NCBI GenBank assembly: GCA_036644995.1
Contig: JAVXOZ010000005.1
Coordinates: 28,067-92,066, forward strand
Direction: 5' to 3'
Source: Clostridiales bacterium
GTDB lineage: Bacteria > Bacillota > Dehalobacteriia > UBA7702
Length of the DNA: 64,000 bases
Part shown: positions 5,279-58,350 of the stretch, one piece after another
Layout: every line of letters begins with the position of its first letter
Position numbering within the stretch: position 1 is the first letter of the stretch
The notes under the pieces: generated by a model
Database searches by the model: none
The model's input: the letters and a program-made list of their open reading frames with translations, nothing else
What the model was told of the DNA's origin: nothing
Position numbers and translations under genes: made by a program

Positions 5279-5541
5279 GAAACTACCTTAAAAGCACCTT
5301 GTAAACCACTTCAGTGCAAACTTAAAATTACCTTAATCCAACCTTGTAAATCACGTCTGTGCAAACAACTACCTTAATCGCACCTTGTAAATCACTTTGT
5401 GCCAACTTAAACTACCTTAATAGCACCTTATAAATCACTTTGTGCCAACTAAAACTACCTTAATAGCACCTTATAAATCACTTTGTGCCAACTAAAACTA
5501 CCTTAGTAGCACCTTGTAAATCACCTTTGTGCCAACTTAAA
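5279..5541. repeat. degenerate tandem array, six units of about 43 nt
   Basis: Unit CTACCTTAATAGCACCTTATAAATCACTTTGTGCCAACTAAAA. The units at 5412-5454 and 5455-5497 are identical. Confidence 0.9.
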
Positions 5542-11592: not shown

Positions 11593-11618
11593 AACCAAGG
11601 CTTTTTAAAGCCTTGGTT
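11593..11618 (-). terminator. intrinsic terminator closing structured element copy A
   Basis: 10-bp stem AACCAAGGCT/AGCCTTGGTT, followed by TTTTATATTTT on the minus strand. Confidence 0.75.
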
Positions 11619-11619
11619 A

Positions 11620-11756
11620 GAAGATGTCAGGTTGTTAAGAAAGCCTTAGATTCGGTAAAAACCCCTGAATAGCGACTGTGCAGTGTACATAGATGTACAT
11701 AAGCAGTGGGTGGAAAGTGATTTTGCCGAATATCAAACTTTATCTACAGCCTAACT
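11620..11756 (-). repeat. rod-like structured intergenic element, copy A
   Basis: About 87% identical over ~134 nt to 41775..41906 by hand alignment. Long imperfect terminal inverted repeats, central TGTACA hairpin, no conserved ORF. Confidence 0.8.
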
Positions 11757-11820
11757 GTTATTTCTATAAAATACAGAAAGCACATAATTTAACCACGTTA
11801 AAATGGTTGGATAATTTAGA

Positions 11821-11963
11821 CACGGAAATTTATCCACGGGGTTATAGCCACGGAGTTATCGCCACGGAAATTTAGCCACGGGGTTATAGCCACGGAGTTT
11901 TATCCACGGAGTTTTAGTCACGAGGTTATCGCCACGGGGTTTTATCCACGGGGTTTTAGTCAC
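11821..11963. repeat. degenerate tandem array, about 11 units of 13-14 nt
   Basis: Unit CCACGGRRTTWTMG repeated head to tail, directly 3' of the scfB stop codon. Confidence 0.9.
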
Positions 11964-11968
11964 ATATC

Positions 11969-13339
11969 TTACTCACTTTCAGCCACTTGCACCATAATGG
12001 CACATTCCATACGCTTGCGAAACAGCTCACAGCCATATTCATAAATACCGCTTATGCTCCCTGTGGCATGGTAGGCATTGGCAGGGCAGCCACCGGAACA
12101 ATATAGCCTTGCCCAGCAATCCCCGCACTCCTTACGGGCATATACATTGCACATTTTAAATTCATCACGCAGCTTTGTATTGGTTACCCCATCCCAAATA
12201 TTACCCAAGCTGTACTTGGGGTCATCTACAAATTGATGGCAGGGAAAAAGCTCACCCCAAGGTGTAACCGCCATGTATTCCGTGCCGGAACCACACCCGG
12301 AAATCCGTTTATAAATACAGGGGCCTTGGGTTAAATCTATCATATAATGGTAAAAAGTGAAGCCTTCACCTTTTTTATTGCGTTTTATCATCTCTTTGGC
12401 TAAAATTTCATATTGATTAAAAAGCTCGGGCAAATCCTCAGCTGTTAAAGCATAGGGGTCTTTGGGGTCACAAACCACAGGCTCCATGCTTAATTCCTTA
12501 AAGCCCAAATCCGCCATGTGAAAAATATCATTGGTAAAATCCACATTATTGTGGGTAAAAGTGCCACGCACATAGTAATCCTTACCTTTACGGCGGCGTA
12601 CCAGTTCCTGAAATTTGGGCACAATAGTATCGTAGCTGCCCTTACCTGCAATATTTTTACGCAAATGGTCGTGAACAGATTTTCTGCCATCTAAACTTAA
12701 AACCACATTATGCATTTCTTTATTGGCAAAATCTATTACATCATCATCAATATTCACACCATTGGTGGTGAGGGTAAAGCGGAATTTTTTATCATATTTT
12801 TCTTCTTGATTTCTGCCATAATGCACTAAATCCTTTACCACTTGCCAATTCATCAAAGGTTCGCCGCCGAAAAAATCCACCTCTAAATTGGTGCGTTTTC
12901 CCGAATGCGCAATGAGAAAATCCAAAGCCTGCTTTCCCACATCCAAGGACATAATGCTGCGTTCCCCTTTATATTTGCCTTGACTGGCAAAGCAATATTC
13001 ACAATTTAAATTGCAAGTATGGGCAACATGTAAACAAAGAGCCTTAACCACTGTGCTTCTGTTTTTAAAATCAAAGGCTTTATCTTCATAGGTATCCCCC
13101 ACAAAAAGCTTGCCCTGGTTTTTTAATTCCGCTATATCATCCAAGCATTCCCCAATTTCAGCGGCGGTAATATCGGGATTATCTTGGTATTTATCTAAAA
13201 TTTGGGCAGTTATTTCTTGGGGGGATGTGGTTTGGTATTTAGCAATAATATCGTAAGCCACTTCATCCACAACGTGAACTGCACCGCTGTTAATATCCAA
13301 AACTATATTGTAGCCATTTAATTTATATTGATGAATCAT
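11969..13339 (-). CDS. scfB: radical SAM/SPASM thioether-forming SCIFF peptide maturase
   Basis: 456 aa with CNLNCEYC radical SAM cluster and a C-terminal SPASM Cys pattern. The SCIFF precursor gene lies immediately upstream. Confidence 0.85.
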   Translation of the reverse strand: MIHQYKLNGYNIVLDINSGAVHVVDEVAYDIIAKYQTTSPQEITAQILDKYQDNPDITAAEIGECLDDIAELKNQGKLFVGDTYEDKAFDFKNRSTVVKALCLHVAHTCNLNCEYCFASQGKYKGERSIMSLDVGKQALDFLIAHSGKRTNLEVDFFGGEPLMNWQVVKDLVHYGRNQEEKYDKKFRFTLTTNGVNIDDDVIDFANKEMHNVVLSLDGRKSVHDHLRKNIAGKGSYDTIVPKFQELVRRRKGKDYYVRGTFTHNNVDFTNDIFHMADLGFKELSMEPVVCDPKDPYALTAEDLPELFNQYEILAKEMIKRNKKGEGFTFYHYMIDLTQGPCIYKRISGCGSGTEYMAVTPWGELFPCHQFVDDPKYSLGNIWDGVTNTKLRDEFKMCNVYARKECGDCWARLYCSGGCPANAYHATGSISGIYEYGCELFRKRMECAIMVQVAESE

Positions 13340-15365: not shown

Positions 15366-16811
15366 TCATTCCGGGTGTATATTTATCTCATGTCCGCAAA
15401 TTTCCGTTTCTTTCAGTAAAATGGATTTTCCCGTTTCCTTTGCCCATTTGGCATCTAATTTATTATGTTTGATATATCTAATTATTTGAGAATCCGCATC
15501 AACAATTATGGTGTTGGAATTTGTTTGTTTTGCCTGTTTACACACTTCATGGCGTATTTGAATACAGGTCATAGAGTGGTTAAAAGCCCTGCCTCTGCCA
15601 TCGCAAAAGCTACATTCCTTGTCCATCATTTGGTTAATGCCATGGCCTGTTTTTTTACGTGTCATTTCCAAAAGACCAAGCTGGGTTAAACCTAAAATAT
15701 TGGTTTTAACTCTATCTTTTTTTAATTCCTCTGCCAAGGCATTAATTACCCGTTCTCTATCTTCAATTTTTTCCATATCAATAAAGTCTATTATAATTAT
15801 ACCGCCGATATTACGCAATCGTATTTGCCGCACAATTTCTTGAACAGCCTCTAAATTGGCGTTTAGCACCGTATCTTCTAAATTGGTAGTACCAACATAT
15901 TTCCCGGTATTAACATCAATGGCGGTTAATGCTTCGGTATTATCAATGATTATATGCCCACCGTTTTTCAGCCATGCTTTGCGTTTGCTGGCTTTTTTAA
16001 TTTCGTTTACCAAATCGTATTGTTCAAAAACTTCCATCATATCCTGAACCACAACACGTTTTTTGTAATCTCCGGATAAAAACTGCAAGCTCTCCATTGC
16101 TGCATTATAGGTTTCTTCACTATTTACAATAATTTTGCTAACATCATCGGTAACTTGGTCACGCATTATGCTGGCAAGTAGGTTTAAATCCTTATAAATT
16201 AATTTGCCGCCACCGGAGTGCACGCTTTTATTTACTATTTTGCCCCAAACACCTTTAAGCCATTTTAAATCTGCAAGTAATTCTTCTTCCCCTGCTCCTT
16301 GTGCCACAGTGCGCACAATAACACCCATGCCACGGGGGCATATTTTTTCCGCCATGGTCATTAAGCGTTCACGCTCGGTTTCATCTTCAATGCGCCGAGA
16401 TATCCCAACATAGGAAACAGTGGGCATTAAAACAAGGTAGCGACCAGCCAAGGTTAGGTGGGTAGTTACCCGAGCACCTTTTGAGGGGGTTGGCTCTTTA
16501 ACTATTTGGATTAAAAGCTCCTGATTTTTTTTCAAAAGGTCGCTAATTTCCACTTCTATTTCTTCTTCTTGTTCTTCGGTAGCTTTGGGCAAAACCTCTC
16601 TGATATACAAAAAGCTATTTTTGCCCAAGCCAATATCCACAAAGGCGGCTTGCATTCCCGGGAGCACATTTTCCACCACGCCTTTATAAATATTACCTGT
16701 AAGCCGTTCTTCATCGGCTCTATCAATATATAATTCCACTAAGCGATGGTCTTCCATTACCGCTACCATGGTTTCGTCATCTTCTGCTCTGATAATGATT
16801 TCTTTTTTCAT
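15366..16811 (-). CDS. rng: Rne/Rng family ribonuclease (RNase G-like)
   Basis: 481 aa with an S1 domain plus an RNase E/G catalytic core. Confidence 0.85.
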   Translation of the reverse strand: MKKEIIIRAEDDETMVAVMEDHRLVELYIDRADEERLTGNIYKGVVENVLPGMQAAFVDIGLGKNSFLYIREVLPKATEEQEEEIEVEISDLLKKNQELLIQIVKEPTPSKGARVTTHLTLAGRYLVLMPTVSYVGISRRIEDETERERLMTMAEKICPRGMGVIVRTVAQGAGEEELLADLKWLKGVWGKIVNKSVHSGGGKLIYKDLNLLASIMRDQVTDDVSKIIVNSEETYNAAMESLQFLSGDYKKRVVVQDMMEVFEQYDLVNEIKKASKRKAWLKNGGHIIIDNTEALTAIDVNTGKYVGTTNLEDTVLNANLEAVQEIVRQIRLRNIGGIIIIDFIDMEKIEDRERVINALAEELKKDRVKTNILGLTQLGLLEMTRKKTGHGINQMMDKECSFCDGRGRAFNHSMTCIQIRHEVCKQAKQTNSNTIIVDADSQIIRYIKHNKLDAKWAKETGKSILLKETEICGHEINIHPE

Positions 16812-19330: not shown

Positions 19331-19934
19331 TACATTAATTTACCTAATCAAAAATTTACCTAATCAAAACTGCCTAACAATATATCTAAATAAATCCACC
19401 CTAAAAAATATGTACGAGGAAATTTATCGTAGAAAACTTAACTTAGAAAATCTACCTAAACAAATCTACTTTAGAAAACCTATCTCAGCAAATCTACCTT
19501 AAACAAACTTAACTCAGAAAACCTACCTATCAAATCTACCTCAGAAAACTTACCTTTAGAAAATCTACCTCAGTAAATCTAACTCAACAAATCTATCTCA
19601 ACAAACCTACCTCGGAAAATCTACCTTAGAAAACTTACCTTAACAAACCTACCTCAGAAAATCTATCTCAGAAAATCTACCTAAGTAAATCTACCTCAGT
19701 AAATCTACCTATCAAATCTACCTAACAAATCTACCTAACAAACCTACCTCGGAAAACCTACCTTAGAAAACCTACCTTAGAAAACCTACCTTAGCAAACC
19801 TGCATAAACAAACCTATCTTAAATAAATCTAACTAAAAAAACTTACCTAAGAAATCTTACCTTAGCAAACTTAACTCAGCAAATCTATTTAAACAAATCT
19901 ACATTAATCTACCTTAATTAAATCCACCTAAGCC
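19331..19934. repeat. about 600-bp degenerate tandem array, about 43 units of 13-14 nt
   Basis: Unit AAAYCTACCTYAGN repeated head to tail, filling the whole gap between the M23 stop and the radical SAM start. Confidence 0.95.
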
Positions 19935-28075: not shown

Positions 28076-28181
28076 ACAGAGCCAAATTTTCAAGATTTTT
28101 CCACGATATTTGCAATTTTGAATACGCATATGCGGAATTTAAGTAAAACTTAACTGAAGTAAATCTTTAAAATAATAGTTT

Positions 28182-28313
28182 TTATCCAAAGAAGTTGTGG
28201 TTTTTGTCCAAGAAAATTATGATTCTCATTCAACAAAGTTACGGCTATTATCCAAGGAAGTTGTAGCTATTATCCAAGGAAGTTGTGGTTCTTCTCCAAG
28301 GAAGTTTTGGTAA
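28182..28313. repeat. degenerate tandem array, six 22-nt units
   Basis: Unit TTATCCAAGGAAGTTGTGGTTC, directly 3' of the maf stop. Confidence 0.85.
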
Positions 28314-28375
28314 TTTTAAAAGTTAGAAATTAAACAATTAAAAACAATAAAACTTTTCTGCAAAACAATTGGTTT

Positions 28376-37263: not shown

Positions 37264-37452
37264 AGATTACAAACTTACCTAACACAGGAGATTACAAACT
37301 TACCTAACGCAGGAGATTACAAACTTATCTAACGCAACAGATTGAAAACTTACCTAACACAGGAGATTGCAAATTATCGAACGCAACAGATTGAAAACTT
37401 AGCCAACGCAGTATTTTACTAAATTAGCCAAGGCAGGAAATTACTAAGGAGC
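37264..37452. repeat. degenerate tandem array, about seven 25-nt units
   Basis: Unit AGATTACAAACTTACCTAACRCAGG, decaying toward the right end. Confidence 0.85.
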
Positions 37453-37749: not shown

Positions 37750-37980
37750 CCGCAAACAAGCCGCAACTCAGCAAACAAAACACTACGTTAAAGTTGGGTT
37801 TAGGGTTTAGGCTACTACTGTGCAAACAAACCACAACTCACCAAACAAGCCGCAACTCAGCAAACAAACCACTACTCCGCAAACAAAACACTACGTTAAA
37901 GTTGGGTTTAGGGTGTAGGCTACTACTGTGCAAACAAACCGCATTACATCAAACAAGCCACAACACATCAAATAAACCAA
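37750..37980. repeat. CAAACAA-rich repeat region with a 108-nt higher-order period
   Basis: The 62-nt blocks 37771-37832 and 37879-37940 are 61/62 identical and sit within CAAACAARCCRCAACTCA-type short repeats. Confidence 0.85.
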
Positions 37981-41725: not shown

Positions 41726-41743
41726 ACAGCGGTATAAACCGCT
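41726..41743 (-). terminator. intrinsic terminator closing structured element copy B
   Basis: CAGCGGT-loop-ACCGCTG followed by T8 on the minus strand. Confidence 0.75.
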
Positions 41744-41774
41744 GGCAGATTGTTAAAAAACATAGTTTTTTGGC

Positions 41775-41906
41775 AAGATGTTAGGCTGTTAAGAAAGACT
41801 TAGATTCGGTAAAACTCCCTGAACAGCGGCTGTGCAGTGTACCTAAATGTACATAAGCAGTCGATGAGAAGGGATTTTGCCGAATATCAGACTTTATCAA
41901 CAGCCT
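41775..41906 (-). repeat. rod-like structured intergenic element, copy B
   Basis: About 87% identical to copy A. AGGCTGTT/AACAGCCT closing helix. Flanked by near-identical hairpins at 41726-41743 and 41908-41926. Confidence 0.8.
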
Positions 41907-41934
41907 AAACAGCGGTATAAGCCGCCGAGGTGTT

Positions 41935-42092
41935 TGGGGTTTTGGCTGTGAGATGGGGTTTAGCTGTGAGATGGGTTTTATCTACAAAATGGGGGTTTAG
42001 CTGCGAGATGGGGTTTAGCTGTGAGATGGGTTTTATCTACAAAATGGGGTTTGGTTGCAAGATACCATTTATCTACAAATAATGGGTTTTGG
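41935..42092. repeat. degenerate tandem array, about nine 18-19-nt units
   Basis: The units GGGGTTTAGCTGTGAGATG and GGTTTTATCTACAAAATG alternate, giving a ~56-nt higher-order period. Confidence 0.85.
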
Positions 42093-42245
42093 ATAAAGGT
42101 TGAAAACATCTAAACACCCAAAGTAAGAACTTCTTCTGTATTTAGATATAAAAGTTCCAAGTTTGGTTTTAGCTGTTCTCAGCCTTAATCCACAGCCGCA
42201 AAAGCTTTTACGCAATTAGTAAAAGCTTTTTTCATTTTATATTTA

Positions 42246-43472: not shown

Positions 43473-43724
43473 TTATATTTCCTTCCAATACTTATACCGC
43501 ATTTTTTATGTGGCAAAACAAGTATTTTTTTATTATTATCTTCTTTAATTTAATATATCCCAAAATTTTAATTAAACAAACGCACCCTACTTATAATAAC
43601 ACAAAATATCAAATAAGCAATAAAATATTTATGGAAATTTTGGTGCTGTGCCTAAATTTAATTATATTGAGGCAAATTGTAAAAAAATGTAATTTAGCTT
43701 AAAATGATATATTAAAAAAAGCTT

Positions 43725-43818
43725 AAACCCTTATAATCTAAATTAAACCACTGTTAAACCCTTATAATCTAAATTAAACCACTGTTAAACCCTTTATAAT
43801 CTAAATTAAACCACTGTT
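43725..43818. repeat. three near-perfect 31-nt direct repeats upstream of sstT
   Basis: AAACCCTTATAATCTAAATTAAACCACTGTT three times. The third copy has a 1-nt insertion. Confidence 0.9.
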
Positions 43819-43900: not shown

Positions 43901-43920
43901 TCTTTTTTTATTTAAGTTTT

Positions 43921-44186
43921 AATGTGAGATTGGGTTAAGTTGGTATTTTCATTGGGTTTTAACTTAGGATTGGGTTAAATTGGTATTACCATTGGGTTTT
44001 AATGTAGGATTGAGGTAAGTTGGCATTTTCATTGGGTTTTAACTTAGGATTTGGGTAAGTTGGTATTACCATTGGGTTTTAATGTAGGATTGAGGTAAGT
44101 TGGTATTTTCATTGGGTTTTAACTTAGGATTGGGTTAAGTTTGTATCTTCATTGGGTTTTAACTTGAAAATTTAGGCTTGGGTTTT
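43921..44186. repeat. degenerate tandem array, about 6.5 units of about 41 nt
   Basis: Unit AACTTAGGATTGGGTTAAGTTGGTATTTTCATTGGGTTTT with alternating subtypes (81-nt higher order). Lies between the oxidoreductase stop and the terminator. Confidence 0.9.
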
Positions 44187-47865: not shown

Positions 47866-48073
47866 GTTAATCACTCCTTTTTTGCGTTGAACATCACTTT
47901 TTTTTTGCAAACTACGATGTAACAACAAGATTTTATACTTTATATATATATTTAGTATACACTTGCAAAGAAAGAAAAACAACTTATTTTTGGTTTTTAA
48001 TAACCTATTATTTTCATTTAATAAGAAGAAAAGCCAATCAATGATGGGATTAATATTTTATTATAGATTAAAT

Positions 48074-48298
48074 GGGGGTTATGCCCAAGGAACTATGTTA
48101 AAAGAATCTATGTTAAATGAGGTCTATGCCCAAGGGGGTTATGCCCAAGGGGTTCGTGCCCAAGAGGGCTATGTTAAAGAAGTGGGGCTATGTTAAATTG
48201 GTTTGTGCCCAAGTGGAGCTATGTTAAATTAGTACTATCTTAAAGGGGGTCTACGCTAAATTGCTCTACGCTAAAGCCGAAGGATGTCTACACTAAAT
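48074..48298. repeat. degenerate tandem array, about 14 units of 14-17 nt
   Basis: The units GGTTATGCCCAAGG, GCTATGTTAAA and GTCTACGCTAAA drift along the array. Confidence 0.85.
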
Positions 48299-48489
48299 GC
48301 TGTGGTGCGGAATAAAAACGTAATTTTTACCACGGTATAGACCATATATAACAAAAAACCTACTTTCCGATGGGGGTCTGTGCCCAAGTTAAATGGGGTC
48401 TACACTAAATGCTGTGGTGCGGAATAAAAACGTAATTTTTACCACGGTATAGACCATTTTCATATATAACAAAAAACCTACTTTCCGAT
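48286..48489. repeat. two direct repeats of about 86-92 nt separated by 26 nt
   Basis: 48286-48371 and 48398-48489 are nearly identical apart from a 4-nt insertion. Each contains a bulged hairpin GTGGT...AAAAA-CGTAA-TTTTT-ACCAC. Confidence 0.9.
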
Positions 48490-48553: not shown

Positions 48554-48630
48554 TGGTGGAGACAGCTGGATTCGAACCGGCGACCCCCTGCATGTGAGGC
48601 AGGTACTCTAACCTGCTGAGCTATGCCTCC
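48554..48630 (-). tRNA. tRNA-Val (anticodon CAC), CCA encoded
   Basis: Hand-folded cloverleaf: acceptor GGAGGCA/TGTCTCC, anticodon stem CCTGC/GCAGG with loop CTCACAT, T-arm GCCGG-TTCGAAT-CCGGC. 77 nt. Confidence 0.9.
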
Positions 48631-50051: not shown

Positions 50052-50157
50052 TCGGATATATCCCGATATACTCGATGTATCCCGTTGTATCCGATATACT
50101 CGTTGTATCCCGTTGTATCCCGTTGTATCCGATATACTCGATGTATCCGATATAATA
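50052..50157. repeat. degenerate tandem array (units GTATCCCGTT and GTATCCGATATACTCGWT)
   Basis: About 8 units of 10-18 nt between the regulator stop and its terminator. Confidence 0.85.
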
Positions 50158-51083: not shown

Positions 51084-51097
51084 AAATGCAAAATAAT

Positions 51098-51197
51098 AAA
51101 ACACCGAAATAGCTGTTTTTAAACCATTATTACCCATAAGTTAGATTTTTTCCGCCTAATTTATGGATTGGTTTATTACGCTATCTCGGTGTTTTTT
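51098..51197. terminator. about 100-nt three-tier hairpin between convergent operons
   Basis: Outer stem ACACCGAAATAGC/GCTATCTCGGTGT, middle AAACCA/TGGTTT, inner CCATAA/TTATGG. T-rich runs on both sides. Confidence 0.55.
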
Positions 51198-52063: not shown

Positions 52064-53134
52064 TTATTCCACCCCGGCTTTTAATTGCTGCATCTGCTCA
52101 TCACTGATAAGGGCATCAATTATTTCATCAATATTCCCCTCTAAAATAGAATCCAAACGGTGCAAAGTCAGCCCCACTCTGTGGTCTGTAACTCTGCCTT
52201 GGGGGAAATTAAAGGTGCGAATACGTTCGGAACGGTCGCCACTGCCCACCATGGATTTACGTTGGCTGGAAATATCACCATTTATTTCTGCCTGCATGGC
52301 ATCGTAAATACGGGCACGTAAAACTTTCATGCCTTTTTCCTTATTCCGAAGCTGGCTTTTTTCATCCTGACAGGAAACCACAATACCCGTGGGTAAATGG
52401 GTAAGACGCACCGCACTTTGGGTGGTATTAACACACTGCCCACCCGGGCCGCTGGCACAAAAAACATCTACTTTAATATCATTGGGGCCGATATCCACTT
52501 CCACATCCTCAGCCTCGGGCATAACTGCCACAGTGGCAGCGGATGTATGAACCCTGCCGCTGGCTTCGGTATCCGGCACACGCTGTACACGATGGACTCC
52601 GCTTTCATATTTTAAACGGCTGTAAACATTTTTACCTTCAATAAGGCAAACCACTTCTTTTACGCCGCCAATATCCGTAATATTACTGCTTAAAACTTCC
52701 ACTTTCCATTTGTTTTTTTCCGCATAACGGCCATACATTTTGTAGAGATCGTTGGCAAAAAGAGCTGCTTCTTCACCGCCCTGACCTGCACGTATTTCCA
52801 TAATTACGTTTTTGGCATCGTTGGGGTCTTTGGGCAGGAGCAAAAGTTTTAAATCCGCTTTGGCGGTTTCTATTTTTTCTTTAAGCTCATCTGCTTCCAG
52901 CTCTGCCATTTCTTTCATTTCCGCATCAGTTTCTTCGTTTAAAATTTCCAAAGTACCTTGTAATTCTTCATTCCAAGCTTTATATTCCCGAAATTTGCTC
53001 ACAATATCTTCTAAATCCGAATGGGCTTTTACGTGTTTTTTCCATTCTGTTTGGTCGTTTATCACTGCGGGATCACCAATCAACAATGATAATTCTTCGT
53101 ATTTTTCTTCTAATTGACTTAATTTATCGAACAT
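52064..53134 (-). CDS. prfA: peptide chain release factor 1
   Basis: 356 aa with the GGQ motif (GPGGQCVNT) and an RF1-type RVQRVP.TE region. Confidence 0.95.
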
Positions 53135-54096
53135 TAATTAATTTCTTCCTCTGTTGTTTTTTCGCTTATTTCTTCGCCGTCAACTGTGTCGTTTTTCTGG
53201 TTATTGGGTGGCATTTCTTCGGGGTGGTCTTGGTAATAATTGGGTATAACTGCTTTTAAAGATGTTAAAGCAACTTCCAACTGAGATAAATCAGGTTCTT
53301 CGGTGGTGAGTTTTTGCATCCACAACCCCGGTGCCATAAAAATCCGCACCGCTTTATATTGGCAATGCCCTGCGGCAAACCTTGTAACCTCATAGGTTAG
53401 TCCCGCAATAAATGGCATTGATATAAGCTTAATTAAAATACGTGCCCAGGAGCTTTCTGTTTGACCCACAAAAGTGAAAACCACAATCATCACAATCATC
53501 ACCATTAGCATAAAGGCAGTGCCGCACCGCATATGCAAGGTGGTATACTTTTGGGCAGCTTCAGGCGTAAGTTCATCGTTATGCTCCCAAGCTGCAATGG
53601 ATTTATGCTCTGCTCCATGGTATTGAAACACACGGCGGATATCCTCCATGCGTCTGACTAAAACTATATAAAGTATAAAAATAGATATACGGATTATGCC
53701 TTCAACCAAGCTTCTGCCAAAATCACCGATATAGGGATGCAGCCAAGTGCCCAACATAACAGGGGCGGCAAAAAACATGGCTAAAACCACCACCACCGCC
53801 ACGGCTATGGCTAAAAACATACCCCAAAAGCCCAAATCCTCATCTTCTTCACCGGATTGATTCGCAGACCAAGTGATATTTTTCATACCCAAAGCCATCA
53901 TCTCGATAAGGTTAACAAATCCCCTGATAATAGGCCATTTTAAGATGGGGTATTTATTTTTGATTGTATCCACAGGCTCTTTTTTGGTTATAATTTCTCC
54001 GTTTTCTTTGCGTACGGATACGGCATATTCCTTGGGACCCATCATCATTACACCTTCGATGACCGCCTGACCCCCATAATAAAAAGGTTTTTTCAT
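53134..54096 (-). CDS. DUF1385 domain membrane protein
   Basis: The N-terminus [13 protein letters not shown] is family-typical, and it holds the conserved position upstream of prfA/prmC. Confidence 0.75.
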
Positions 54097-54161
54097 TAAT
54101 ACATTCCTTTTTTAATTTACAAACCGCCAAATATTGGCAAGTGTGATTTTTCATAGCAAAA

Positions 54162-54182
54162 AACGGAGCTTAACGCTCCGTT
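54162..54182 (-). terminator. intrinsic terminator closing structured element copy C
   Basis: AACGGAGC-loop-GCTCCGTT followed by T6 on the minus strand. Confidence 0.75.
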
Positions 54183-54333
54183 GCAGATTGTGAACAAAAT
54201 GAAATTTTGCCTGCACAATTAGGACTTTAAAAAGACTTAACCCGACGAAAATAGTAAGCAGAATTTCGGGGTAAATACACCAAAAAATCGGCAATTAATA
54301 TTTTCGGCGAGCATCAGACTTTTTAATGCCTTA
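54183..54333 (-). repeat. rod-like structured intergenic element, divergent copy C
   Basis: Shares the AAAGACTTA...CG.CGAAAA / TTTTCGGCG...ATCAGACTTT helix, with the same internal mismatches as copies A and B. Bracketed by duplicated hairpins at 54162-54182 and 54334-54354. Confidence 0.65.
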
Positions 54334-54373
54334 AACGGAGCATAAAGCTCCGTTAATCGGTGCATCAAATGAA

Positions 54374-54577
54374 TTATTTTAGACCGTATTTCTTTTTGAA
54401 CTTATCTACACGGCCGCCTTCTTCTACTAAGAAGCGTCTGCTGCCTGTATAGAAGGGATGGCATTGAGAACAAACTTCAACTCTGATATCCTTTTTGGTG
54501 GATTTAGACATAAATTTGTTGCCACATGCACAAGTGATTTCTACTTCATCATAAGCAGGATGAATACCTTTTTTCAT
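54374..54577 (-). CDS. rpmE: 50S ribosomal protein L31 (type A, Zn-ribbon)
   Basis: Start MKKGIHP at ATG 54577, 8 nt after AGAGG. The CxC...CxxC Zn motif is present. Confidence 0.92.
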
Positions 54578-54632
54578 ACCTGTCACCTCTCTTTTCTCAA
54601 ATCGGTATGGTGGATATTTTCATGCAGGAGTA

Positions 54633-55925: not shown

Positions 55926-56440
55926 TTTTCAATTCCACTTTCGTGATATTTTTCTCAATTTCTCATTTTTGTAATTTATCATATAGTTTAATTATTCAAT
56001 AAAAATATACAAAATCCTTTAAACTTAGGTTAAATTACCTTAAGATAGGCAAAAATTGTGGTTAATCTGTGGTTTTATCACTTTTACTCTTAAATAAGAC
56101 TTGAATATTGTTGCAAAATATATTACTATATAATATGAATGCAGAATTTACCTTTTGCAAAAATCTGAAAATTTATGCCTTTTTAAATACAGGATTTATT
56201 AAAAATTCAAGCCGTGGGTATTTACTTTTAAAAACTTAAAATAAGGAAACATTTAGGCACTTTAAAATTAGGCTGAAAAAATTATACCTTAACAATTTAC
56301 CCACCATGTTTTTCAAGACTACACTTTTTTAAGCATATTAATATAGATTTTACCGTAAAAACCATTTATATATTCAATTTACCGTAAACCAAAAAAACAA
56401 CTTGGTTTACTGCATTAATTATTATGGGGGATTTTTTATA

Positions 56441-57838
56441 ATGAGGGATTTTTTTAAGAATAAAAAAAAGAATATCGCACCTCAACCTCAAGAACAACTA
56501 TATGCTGTTTTTATTCAAAGTAACGACAGAATATATCATTTGGATAAAGAATGTGCAGGTGTGGGCTGTATTACCATCAATAACAAAATAGCCCGTTGCC
56601 AAGCCAGAAAACCATGCCAACTGTGCGCAAAAAACCGTCCTGCGTACAATGCCCCAATAATTTCCCCAGAGGAAAATACCAAGGCATATACACACACACC
56701 CAAACCACCCTTAACACCACCACCTGCCATAGCCAATAAAGAAAATACAGCCACGGCGGATAGCAATATAAATACGCCATTATCACCTTTAAATGCCCAA
56801 GCTGACCTTGGTGTAAACCCTACCCTTGAGCCAAGCCCAGAAGCTGAAAATTTAGATATGCCGCCCTTAGCTCAAGAAGCCGCAGCCAAAAATCCCCAAA
56901 TGGAACTTAATGATATTATCGCCCCAAAAGAGCAAGCCATACCATCGGTAATTTTAAATAATGAAATAAATCCAGATAATGGCATTGCATCGGATAATAT
57001 TACCATTGCAGAAAATAACAGCGAAAATAGCAATATCGAGGAAAAAAACAGTCTTATCCAAGATATAAAAAAAGAAGATATAGAAAAACTTTTTCCTTTA
57101 CCCACAGAAAATATTGAAGATGAAAAACCTCTATCTTGGGAATCTCTTAAAGAAATGCCCCTTGCTTCCAGTACCGAAGAAGTTGCAGAAAAAATTGTAA
57201 GTGATGAGGGTGAAATTTCAGGGAATATCTCTGAAAACATTGAAGATGAAAAACCCCTATCTTGGGAATCACTTAAGGTAATGCCCCTTAACCCCAACAC
57301 CGAAGAAGTTGCGGAAAAAATTGTAAGTGACGAGGGTGAAATTTCAGCCAATATCTCTGAAAATATTGAAGATGAAAAACCATCGGTATCGCCACTGGTT
57401 TTTAACAGCACCCAAGCCACGGCAATGGCTGAGGAAAATATAACTAACACAGAAACACCAATGCCAAACCCGATAATGGCACCGATTTCCTCATCTATAT
57501 CCACAGATGAAAATGACTTAAACCCCAAAAATCAAGGCACAAATATACCGATATTAACCAGAGTACCCCTTACACCTTTGCTGGAAACACAAGAACCCTT
57601 GACTGAACATCACCATACAGAACCAAAAAAACAAAAAAAAACCGGTAAAACCCAAAACTTAGTATTTGGTAAATTAGACAAGGTTTCCATTGTTGGCATC
57701 GCCATATTTACACTGACTATTTTGGTTATAATTGCCAATTTTGCCACAGGTGGCATAGTGCCCAAAGATAAAGTAGATGCCTTGAGCTGCAATACAGAAA
57801 TATCTTGTAATATTGATAACTATGATTTAAAATTTTAA
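56441..57838 (+). CDS. hypothetical protein: N-terminal Cys motif, ~340-aa acidic disordered region with 42-aa repeats, C-terminal TM
   Basis: ATG 56441 follows GGGGGA. YHLDKEC..C...C..C motif. 126-nt tandem repeats at 57107-57382. TM segment VSIVGIAIFTLTILVIIANFA. Confidence 0.7.
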   Translation: MRDFFKNKKKNIAPQPQEQLYAVFIQSNDRIYHLDKECAGVGCITINNKIARCQARKPCQLCAKNRPAYNAPIISPEENTKAYTHTPKPPLTPPPAIANKENTATADSNINTPLSPLNAQADLGVNPTLEPSPEAENLDMPPLAQEAAAKNPQMELNDIIAPKEQAIPSVILNNEINPDNGIASDNITIAENNSENSNIEEKNSLIQDIKKEDIEKLFPLPTENIEDEKPLSWESLKEMPLASSTEEVAEKIVSDEGEISGNISENIEDEKPLSWESLKVMPLNPNTEEVAEKIVSDEGEISANISENIEDEKPSVSPLVFNSTQATAMAEENITNTETPMPNPIMAPISSSISTDENDLNPKNQGTNIPILTRVPLTPLLETQEPLTEHHHTEPKKQKKTGKTQNLVFGKLDKVSIVGIAIFTLTILVIIANFATGGIVPKDKVDALSCNTEISCNIDNYDLKF

Positions 57839-57984
57839 GTATTAAAAAAACCCTGCATCTTTATACACGGATTTGCCCCAGATAAAAATAATATATTCAT
57901 AAAATATTCTACCTTTTATAGCTTTGCAAACTTTTTAAAATTCTAACCTTTCAAATTAATACTTCACAATAAAGGGGGAAAAAC

Positions 57985-58350
57985 ATGAAAACCGGAAAAC
58001 TGCTTATTGGCATATTATGTATTTTATTATGCTTTTTTATAACTTTTCAATCCTGTGCCGCAGGAGTACACAACTTTTTTGCAAACACAGGTGAGGTTGG
58101 GGGCACAGCAGGTTTAATAACGGCATTGTTGATGCTAACAGCTGGTATAGTTGGAATTGCCACTCGCAATTATCACAAAAGAGGCGGTGCACTTTCAGCC
58201 ATGATACTTTACTGTGTGGCTGCACTTTTTGCCATTCTTTTAGCAGGCTCCTATATAGACCTAATTATTTGGGGAATTTTATGTTTGGCATTTGCGGCTT
58301 TTTATTTAGCCGATATAATAATAGAAAACAATCCATTGATAGGTGAATAA
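57985..58350 (+). CDS. small hypothetical membrane protein
   Basis: AAGGGGG RBS. 121 aa with 4 predicted TM segments. Confidence 0.55.
   Translation: MKTGKLLIGILCILLCFFITFQSCAAGVHNFFANTGEVGGTAGLITALLMLTAGIVGIATRNYHKRGGALSAMILYCVAALFAILLAGSYIDLIIWGILCLAFAAFYLADIIIENNPLIGE

What the first reader, a model, noticed from the sequence alone, without database searches (positions are those of the whole stretch)
54156..54354. Structured element copy C in the rpmE 3' region, again between duplicated hairpins
Between rpmE and the DUF1385 gene, AAACGGAGCTTAACGCTCCGTT (54161-54182) and AAACGGAGCATAAAGCTCCGTT (54333-54354) bracket a ~150-nt core. The core is much more diverged than A against B. It keeps the same long helix ends (AAAGACTTA...CGACGAAAATA pairing with TATTTTCGGCG...ATCAGACTTT), including the same non-canonical positions as copy B. 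It also has an extra CAAAAT-GAA-ATTTTG hairpin. On the minus strand the rpmE-proximal hairpin lacks a U-tract and the distal one has U6. The stem sequence differs from copies A and B while pairing is retained, which is the best evidence that structure, not sequence, is conserved. The minus-strand 5' end, AAAGUCUGAU(A/G), is shared by all three copies.
Basis: seen in the sequence. Interest (0 to 1): 0.7.

Follow-up and report, generated by a model that had tools for sequence, protein, structure and literature searches.

The report
Small repeat inserted in rpmE terminator
The "structured element" after the ribosomal protein L31 gene is most likely a diverged copy of a small non-coding mobile repeat that landed inside the gene's transcription terminator and duplicated the terminator hairpin, rather than a dedicated structured RNA gene.

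Summary
Two near-identical hairpins (54334-54354 and 54162-54182) bracket about 150 nt that folds into a long rod, and only the distal hairpin has a U-tract. A covariance model built from copies A and B alone finds copy C at E about 2e-6 to 5e-6. Sequence-only nhmmer does not find it (E=2.6). No Rfam family, 6S included, matches.

More members turned up: a degenerate copy D at 42083-42200, and two copies in a related species (locus L037), one of them again downstream of rpmE. B, C and both L037 copies each sit between direct duplicates of the local terminator hairpin. The duplicated stretch is 20-35 nt and differs at each locus. Four related genomes have the empty rpmE site: one hairpin, then TTTTT(G/A)CTAT. 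The insertion point lies between the stem and the T-tract.

Copies within one genome resemble each other more than copies at the same position in different species. Folding shows no consistent strand preference. The rod diverges about as fast as rpmE third codon positions.

Best reading (0.6): a MITE-like non-autonomous element with target choice like IS1630 (IS30 family), which duplicates terminator inverted repeats. No transposase was found. A functional 3'-UTR or small-RNA role is not excluded, because basal pairs show some covariation.

The parts
54374..54586 (-). rpmE (ribosomal protein L31), the upstream gene whose terminator was hit
   Evidence: ORF; Pfam Ribosomal_L31, E=4e-31
54334..54354 (-). 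HP1: the native rpmE terminator stem-loop (AACGGAGC-TTTAT-GCTCCGTT), now separated from its T-tract; left copy of the target duplication
   Evidence: About 90% identical to HP1 of the relative L037 (22/23; 19/20). Same stem as the single hairpin at the empty site of L040
54219..54333 (-). Rod: imperfect inverted repeat of the element (5' TAAGGC..AAAGTCTGAT.. / ..TTAAGTCTTT..GTCCTAA 3')
   Evidence: Fold (z=-4.7). Covariance-model hits; the hit starts one base into HP1, at 54334
54183..54218 (-). Tail of the element: small hairpin CAAAAT-TTC-ATTTTG (54195-54209) and 3' end ACAATCTGC (54183-54191)
   Evidence: Read by eye, the tail lines up with the tails of B, L037C and L037-E2, which sit at other loci (sequences), so it belongs to the element
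54156..54182 (-). HP2: second copy of the rpmE terminator stem-loop (54162-54182) plus the original T-tract and GCTAT; the working terminator
   Evidence: Terminator scan. The T-tract plus GCTAT matches the empty sites of L036 and L040
53134..54096 (-). DUF1385 gene, first gene of the downstream DUF1385-prfA-prmC cluster
   Evidence: Pfam DUF1385, E=2e-82; conserved gene order in relatives
41727..41927 (-). Copy B with its own duplicated hairpins: HP1 41910-41927, rod 41781-41908, tail 41745-41780 (ends in ACAATCTGC), HP2 41727-41744 plus U8
   Evidence: (HP1 vs HP2 19/21),
11593..11754 (-). Copy A: rod 11627-11754, no tail, followed by terminator hairpin 11593-11618; no clear upstream duplicate
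42083..42200 (+). Copy D: degenerate rod of the same family in the opposite orientation, abutting the terminator of the SstT/SDF transporter gene
   Evidence: Covariance-model hits of 29.7 bits and 36.7 bits on + against 23.9 on -; fold

Best explanation
Copy C is a diverged member of a small family of non-coding, non-autonomous, MITE-like insertion elements, about 150-165 bp long. Each element has a 115-128-nt imperfect inverted repeat (the 'rod') and a 31-36-nt tail ending in ACAAYCTG.

Shown: the element sits exactly between the stem and the T-tract of the rpmE intrinsic terminator, and the whole stem-loop (about 21 nt) is present on both sides. The same arrangement, with a different local hairpin each time, flanks B and both L037 copies.

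Inferred: a transposase supplied in trans recognises terminator palindromes and cuts at both feet of the palindrome. Gap repair then duplicates the entire hairpin. This is the behaviour reported for IS1630, an IS30-family element of Mycoplasma fermentans.

Inferred consequences: HP1 has lost its U-tract, so rpmE transcripts probably read through the element and stop at HP2 plus U6. The rod would then be a passive 3'-UTR passenger, and its RNA fold a by-product of the DNA inverted repeat.
For: (1) It is a dispersed family. The window holds A, B, C and D. The related locus L037 holds two more copies: one downstream of rpmE, and one (E2) between convergent, unrelated genes.
(2) The flanking direct duplicates differ at each locus: B 19/21, C 20/25 with identical stems, L037C 18/24, E2 25/35 with compensated stem changes.
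(3) Four relatives have an empty rpmE site with a single hairpin directly followed by TTTTT(G/A)CTAT. These are L036 and L040 (DUF1385 86% and 84% identical to the window) and L051 and L052 (67% and 66%). Their intergenic regions are 59-157 nt, against 277 nt in the window.
(4) The two L037 copies resemble each other (z=12.5) and B (z=8.5-13.2) more than L037C resembles C, which sits at the same position (z=5.9).
(5) Folding has no consistent strand bias.
(6) Between the window and L037 the rod is 62% identical, about the same as rpmE third codon positions (0.62). HP1 is 90% identical.
(7) Short-read assemblies of the same species break inside copy A (L046 and L047 start at its apex), as expected for a repeat.
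(8) There is no Rfam match and no internal promoter-like site.
(9) There is a precedent. [quoted passage not shown] Reported duplications are 19-26 bp in one paper and 16-26 bp in another, with 27-bp terminal repeats (title and descriptions cited).
Against: No transposase was found. None of the 17 window ORFs scanned is one, and none appears in the Pfam listings of the fetched loci. The rest of the genome could not be searched.

The strong inverted repeat is internal: the 5' end pairs with the rod's 3' strand. The true 3' end (ACAATCTGC) matches the 5' end only imperfectly, about 7/11 to 9/17 by my own reading of the sequences.

Only six copies are known. None was found in GTDB representative genomes, JGI metagenomes, IMG/VR, plasmids or phages.

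Five of six copies point the same way as the upstream gene.

Basal helices show more double-sided changes than shuffled controls: 8 pairs, reached by 2 of 500 shuffles. Both flanking hairpins keep their stems while their loops diverge. Some selection on structure is therefore possible.

No insertion polymorphism was seen among strains of the window species.
Confidence: 0.6

Rival explanations
1. A family of functional structured RNAs, either 3'-UTR elements or small RNAs derived from 3' UTRs. The rod is kept by selection on RNA pairing. It is transcribed by read-through from the upstream gene, ends at HP2, and acts for example as an mRNA stabiliser or a trans-acting RNA. The family may still have arisen from a mobile element.
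For: The rods fold much better than shuffled sequence (z -3.5 to -6.4). Across five copies, 8 of 28 basal pairs changed on both sides and 86% of cells stay paired, above the shuffled and slid controls. C is recognised only when structure is modelled. The small tail hairpin keeps its pairing with different sequences in B, C and L037C (my reading). Five of six copies lie in the sense orientation behind a gene and end in a working terminator. HP1 and HP2 keep their stems while their loops diverge.
Against: The favoured strand is inconsistent: A, B and L037C fold 6-11 kcal/mol better on the antisense strand. A carries C.A and A.A mismatches in the outer helix (alignment). The element is absent from the two closest relatives and from two outgroups at the same site. 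There is no promoter-like site and no Rfam family. The sequence diverges at a roughly neutral rate. D is inverted and degenerate. With five related sequences, the covariation controls are weak evidence.
Confidence: 0.2
2. A single-stranded-DNA hairpin element handled by a recombinase or HUH transposase: an integron attC-like site, a REPIN/RAYT element, or an IS200/IS605-type palindrome-associated element. In this reading the hairpins are the protein recognition sites.
For: The rod has conserved bulges and mismatches. The base of the A and B rods reads GCCTAAC/GTTAGGC, which fits the attC R''/R' consensus RYYYAAC/GTTRRRY (my reading; the consensus is from general knowledge). The two flanking hairpins are in direct orientation, like the left and right end hairpins of IS200/IS605 elements.
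Against: The flanking hairpins differ between loci and exist alone at empty sites, so they are target sequence, not element ends. These element classes do not duplicate their target. C and the L037 copies lack the GTTRRRY/RYYYAAC motifs. The copies lie singly among housekeeping genes, with no cassette array, integrase or Y1 transposase nearby.
Confidence: 0.07
3. A cis-regulatory leader, such as an attenuator or riboswitch, for the downstream DUF1385-prfA-prmC genes, with HP2 as the regulated terminator.
For: The element lies directly upstream of the DUF1385-prfA-prmC cluster and ends in a terminator. Structured inserts also occur at this position in L037, L041 and L043.
Against: Other copies precede unrelated genes: a HAD hydrolase and a GDPD gene. 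The L037-E2 copy lies between convergent genes, so nothing downstream of it can be regulated. Four relatives with the same gene order lack the element. There is no Rfam hit.
Confidence: 0.03

Closest known systems
IS1630 of Mycoplasma fermentans (IS30 family) and similar mycoplasma IS30-type elements such as ISMhom-1
   Same: These elements insert at inverted repeats and duplicate the whole inverted repeat, giving long target duplications of variable length. Reported sizes are 19-26 bp, or 16-26 bp in another paper. That the IS1630 targets are rho-independent terminators of neighbouring genes is my recollection of the 1999 abstract, which could not be read here. In the present case the duplications are 20-35 nt and each equals the local terminator stem-loop.
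   Different: IS1630 is an autonomous element of 1.2-1.4 kb with a transposase gene and 27-bp terminal repeats. The element here is about 150 bp and non-coding. It has a strong internal inverted repeat and only weak terminal ones, and no partner transposase has been identified. The resemblance to the IS30 ends is limited to a few bases: TGTAGATT in IS30 against T(G/T)TAGG and (T)GCAGATT here. The host is an uncultured Clostridia-type MAG, not a mollicute.
Bacterial MITEs and small intergenic repeats (RUP, BOX, SPRITE, Correia/NEMIS, ERIC, EFAR, bcr1)
   Same: They are small, non-coding, dispersed in intergenic regions next to gene ends, fold into stable stem-loops when transcribed, and often cluster with other repeats.
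   Different: Typical MITEs carry short target duplications of 2-10 bp and clear terminal inverted repeats. Here the duplication is a whole hairpin of about 20-35 nt, and the insertion point is fixed between the terminator stem and its T-tract.
Bacterial class C group II introns
   Same: They also home to intrinsic terminators, inserting just after the stem-loop (general knowledge, not tested here).
   Different: Those introns are at least 600 nt long, have conserved ribozyme domains and make no target duplication. Rfam intron models gave no hit.
6S RNA (RF00013)
   Same: It is a long, rod-like fold of 150-200 nt.
   Different: There is no match to the Rfam model even at E<=10. The element is multi-copy, patchily present and lacks a consistent strand.

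Membership tests
MITE (non-autonomous transposable element) | Small (<500 bp), non-coding | tested here: met
   The element is about 150-165 bp. Only short ORFs that are not conserved between copies occur in it. A search with its six-frame translations found no protein.
MITE (non-autonomous transposable element) | Several dispersed copies in one genome | tested here: met
   Four copies in the 64-kb window and two in 21 kb of L037, at unrelated loci. The total copy number in the genome is unknown.
MITE (non-autonomous transposable element) | Target-site duplication flanking the element, absent from empty sites | tested here: met
   Locus-specific hairpin duplicates at B, C, L037C and E2. A single hairpin at the empty rpmE sites of L036, L040, L051 and L052. 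An empty site was obtained for the rpmE locus only.
MITE (non-autonomous transposable element) | Terminal inverted repeats at the true ends | tested here: inconclusive
   The 5' end pairs well with an internal segment, forming the rod. It matches the real 3' end (reverse complement GCAGATTGT..) only about 7/11 to 9/17, by my own reading of the sequences.
MITE (non-autonomous transposable element) | A cognate transposase with matching ends somewhere in the genome | not testable with these tools
   No transposase among the 17 window ORFs scanned.
IS1630-type (IS30 family) insertion behaviour | Targets inverted repeats (terminators) and duplicates the whole repeat, with variable length | tested here: met
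   The duplicated stretch is about 20 nt at B, about 21 nt at C and L037C, and 30-35 nt at E2. Each equals the local stem-loop, and the insertion lies between stem and T-tract.
IS1630-type (IS30 family) insertion behaviour | IS30-family DDE transposase and terminal repeats of about 27 bp | not tested
   No candidate gene is available. Only a 5-7-nt resemblance to the E. coli IS30 ends was seen. The IS1630 sequence itself could not be obtained.
Any Rfam 15 RNA family, including 6S RNA | Score at or near the family's covariance-model threshold | tested here: not met
   At gathering thresholds the whole window yields only a tRNA. Permissive scans of the C and B regions give only hits with E of 0.28 or more to unrelated families.
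Integron attC site | R''/R' core sites (RYYYAAC / GTTRRRY) at the base of the hairpin; a cassette array with or near intI | tested here: not met
   GCCTAAC/GTTAGGC occurs in A and B only, not in C or the L037 copies. The copies lie singly among housekeeping genes.
REPIN/RAYT or IS200/IS605 palindrome-associated element | End hairpins conserved among all copies; no target duplication | tested here: not met
   The flanking hairpins differ between loci and occur alone at empty sites.
Intrinsic (rho-independent) terminator | G+C-rich stem-loop followed by a U-tract | tested here: met
   HP2 (54182-54162, 8 pairs of which 5 are G-C, then TTTTGC) is the only terminator-like site reported in the region. 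HP1 has the same stem but is followed by UAAGGC.

The most novel reading that the evidence does not exclude
Either of two readings remains open. (a) The rods are functional elements kept by selection on pairing, forming a new class of terminator-embedded 3'-UTR RNA or single-stranded-DNA structure that spreads by copying itself behind terminators. (b) The element is moved by a so-far undescribed structure-specific mechanism outside the IS30 family. That mechanism would recognise extruded terminator cruciforms and produce target duplications whose length is set by the hairpin. The neighbouring tandem-repeat arrays, whose units resemble the element ends, could be by-products of the same machinery.
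Probability: 0.15. Interest if true: 0.7.

Novelty: new variant of a known kind. Interest (0 to 1): 0.38.

Why it matters
If this reading is right, it is a non-autonomous element showing the rare 'duplicate the whole terminator' insertion signature. I know that signature only from IS1630-type IS30 elements of mycoplasmas. Here it appears in an uncultured Clostridia-type lineage.

It gives a practical warning. Long, well-folding intergenic rods flanked by twin hairpins can be insertion scars rather than RNA genes. Covariance-model hits on such rods partly score palindromy.

The insertion also rewires 3' ends. The native terminator loses its U-tract, the upstream mRNA gains a structured 3' extension of about 170 nt, and a second terminator is created. 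That could affect mRNA stability or provide raw material for small RNAs derived from 3' UTRs.

Tried and rejected
Rfam at gathering thresholds over the whole window, and permissive scans of the C and B regions: nothing relevant, so 6S and all other families are rejected.

Scans of GTDB representative genomes and JGI metagenomes with the 21-nt 5' motif returned 12 and 17 single hits. None has the 3' partner motif, so all are chance.

A two-part motif scan of IMG/VR returned at least 120 hits, listed for 80 loci (L056-L135). None of the 80 listed loci is confirmed by the covariance model.

blastn of B against plasmids and of C against phages: no match.

A pseudo-protein made of six-frame translations of A, B and C, meant to catch spurious ORF calls on other copies, found nothing. 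It cost one protein search.

Looking for an empty site at locus B through SstT homologues failed because the neighbouring genes are not conserved, and those loci hold no copies.

Strain comparison in the window species found no presence/absence polymorphism, only one SNP in the apex of C.

RNAalifold on a plain MAFFT alignment failed because the apical parts do not align.

Extension of the target duplication upstream of the hairpin, to about 45 nt at rpmE, is only marginal (p = 0.01-0.28) and is not claimed.

The original IS1630 paper could not be read.

The cis-regulatory-leader and attC readings were considered and rejected for the reasons given under the rival explanations.

Full report
WHAT IS THERE

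Nearly all genes around the finding lie on the minus strand. rpmE (54374-54586, Pfam Ribosomal_L31) is followed after 277 nt by a DUF1385 gene (53134-54096), then prfA and prmC. Read on the minus strand, the spacer contains five parts.
- HP1, AACGGAGC-TTTAT-GCTCCGTT (54354->54334).
- A 115-nt imperfect inverted repeat, the 'rod' (54333->54219). It begins TAAGGC..AAAGTCTGAT and ends ..TTAAGTCTTT..GTCCTAA.
- A 36-nt tail (54218->54183) with a small hairpin, ending in ACAATCTGC.
- HP2, AACGGAGC-GTTAA-GCTCCGTT (54182->54162).
- UUUUGC, the remains of the T-tract.

Only HP2 qualifies as a terminator in the consensus scan, and no promoter-like site lies inside the element. The rod folds at -41.9 kcal/mol with z = -4.7.

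IS C RELATED TO A AND B?

A (11627-11754) and B (41781-41908) are 88% identical without gaps. A covariance model built from A and B alone finds C on the minus strand at 31.8 bits, E = 2e-6 to 5e-6. A sequence-only profile does not (nhmmer E = 2.6). So the similarity is carried by the retained inverted-repeat geometry plus short motifs. AAAGTCTGAT is exact in B and C. ACAATCTGC occurs only twice in the whole window, both times directly 5' of the distal hairpin, at B and at C. C is therefore a genuine, strongly diverged member. No Rfam family matches any copy.

MORE MEMBERS

The same model revealed three further copies.
- A degenerate, inverted copy D next to B (42083-42200).
- A copy downstream of rpmE in a related species (locus L037, DUF1385 77% identical; L037:9789-9914).
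- A copy between two convergent, unrelated genes in that species (L037-E2, 15812-15937).

No further copies were found in about 200 kb of related loci, in GTDB representatives, JGI metagenomes, IMG/VR, plasmids or phages.

The source organism is an uncultured Bacillota/Clostridiales MAG.

THE HAIRPINS ARE DUPLICATED TARGET SEQUENCE

At B, C, L037C and E2, the stem-loop just 5' of the element is repeated just 3' of it. The repeated sequence differs at each locus.
- B: GGCGGCTTATACCGCTG and CAGCGGTTTATACCGCTG, 19/21.
- C: 20/25, with identical stems.
- L037C: 18/24.
- E2: a CCAAAGGTCGAAACCGAYYTTTGG hairpin, 25/35, with compensated changes in the stem.

Four related genomes show the unoccupied rpmE site. 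L036 and L040 have DUF1385 86% and 84% identical to the window; L051 and L052 have 67% and 66%. Each has exactly one hairpin of the same type, directly followed by TTTTT(G/A)CTAT, and an intergenic region of 59-157 nt. In the window and in L037, HP2 keeps that T-tract and GCTAT, while HP1 keeps the native upstream flank. The element therefore lies between the terminator stem and its T-tract, and the whole stem-loop was duplicated. The length of the duplication follows the size of the hairpin, about 20 to 35 nt. Copy A lacks the tail and a clear upstream duplicate, and looks truncated or older.

DNA PALINDROME OR RNA STRUCTURE?

Folding both strands of each rod shows no consistent preference. 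A, B and L037C are 6-11 kcal/mol better on the strand antisense to the genes. C is 10 kcal/mol better on the sense strand. E2 is equal on both.

Between the window and L037, the rpmE-locus rods are 62% identical. That is about the identity of rpmE third codon positions (0.62). HP1 is 90% identical.

The two L037 copies resemble each other (z = 12.5) and B (z = 8.5-13.2) more than L037C resembles C at the same position (z = 5.9). This points to independent insertion or gene conversion rather than vertical conservation.

The mismatch positions shared by A, B and C (U.U, G.A) are U-A or G.U in the L037 copies, by my reading of the alignments. Short-read assemblies of the same species break in the middle of copy A.

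On the other side, the basal helices of five copies keep 86% of cells paired. Eight of 28 pairs changed on both sides, above shuffled controls (2 of 500 shuffles reach this) and above slid controls. The tail hairpin and both flanking hairpins keep pairing despite sequence change. With five related sequences this is weak evidence, but it keeps a structural constraint possible.

MECHANISM AND PRECEDENT

The combination of three features matches what is reported for IS1630 of Mycoplasma fermentans, an IS30-family element. The features are insertion at a terminator palindrome, duplication of the whole palindrome, and variable duplication length. [quoted passage not shown] Its duplications are reported as 19-26 bp or 16-26 bp with 27-bp terminal repeats; see also ISMhom-1. 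I could not read the original paper. That the IS1630 targets are terminators is my recollection of its abstract.

I therefore read the family as a MITE-like derivative mobilised in trans by a transposase with this target choice. Shown: the insertion point, the duplication, the empty sites and the dispersal. Inferred: the enzyme and the cut-at-both-feet model. No transposase is present among the 17 window ORFs scanned. The element's true termini are only weak inverted repeats. The resemblance to the E. coli IS30 ends (TGTAGATT against T(G/T)TAGG and (T)GCAGATT) is too short to count.

The likely transcriptional consequence is also inferred. rpmE transcripts would read through HP1, which has no U-tract, and end at HP2.

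VERDICT

The interpretation as a structured RNA copy is only partly supported. The most likely identity is a small mobile repeat carrying an uncommon terminator-duplicating insertion signature (confidence 0.6). A functional RNA role is the main rival (0.2). This is a new variant of a known kind and of moderate interest.

Noticed in passing
window 5280-5541, 11813-11963, 19430-19887, 28178-28315, 37264-37444, 37752-37979, 41935-42063, 43723-43818, 43916-44165, 50063-50154: Many intergenic regions carry tandem-repeat arrays with periods of 14, 18, 22, 25, 28, 31, 40, 43 and 108 nt and up to about 32 copies. This density is unusual for a bacterial chromosome segment made of housekeeping genes. 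Their function is unknown.
   Followed up: partly
window 11813-11963 and 41935-42063: The arrays directly upstream of copies A and B have units that resemble the element's ends. On the minus strand, TTGTAGATAAAACCC and CCGTGGATAAAACC resemble the 5' end GCTGTAGATAAAG, and ACAGCTAAACCCCATCT resembles the rod's 3' end plus tail start, ACAGCCTAACATCT. This was seen by eye and partly in the alignment. It was not tested statistically.
   Followed up: partly
L041:2762-2970 and L043:9841-10000: In two more distant relatives (DUF1385 71% and 68% identical), the rpmE-DUF1385 spacer holds a different structured insert. Its stem, AAAATCCCTG..CAGGGATTTT, and its apex, TATGTAC-N-ATGTACA, resemble the apical half of copies A and B. 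The insert again lies between two similar short GC-rich hairpins. The covariance-model hit is only E=0.65.
   Followed up: partly
window 51096-51197: A 102-nt imperfect hairpin (AAAACACCGAGATAGC...GCTATTTCGGTGTTTT) lies between the convergent prmC gene and a small + strand ORF. It scores weakly with the rod model on both strands (E 0.04-0.2). It is probably an unrelated bidirectional terminator.
   Followed up: partly
window 56402-58350: Two + strand ORFs are inserted between the radical SAM gene and the glpX-type FBPase gene, which are adjacent in relatives (L037, L051). One is a 478-aa acidic, proline-rich protein with no Pfam match and an internal 126-nt tandem duplication (57107-57381).
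   Followed up: no
window 48063-48457 and tRNA 48557-48630: A cluster of 32-81-nt direct repeats lies next to the only tRNA gene of the window, upstream of a 380-aa HTH_3 (Cro/C1-type) protein.
   Followed up: no
window 11969-13339 and upstream; L044:336-479: The radical SAM/SPASM gene upstream of copy A is the maturase partner of a SCIFF peptide gene (Pfam SCIFF in the strain locus L044). This is consistent with a Clostridia-type organism.
   Followed up: no
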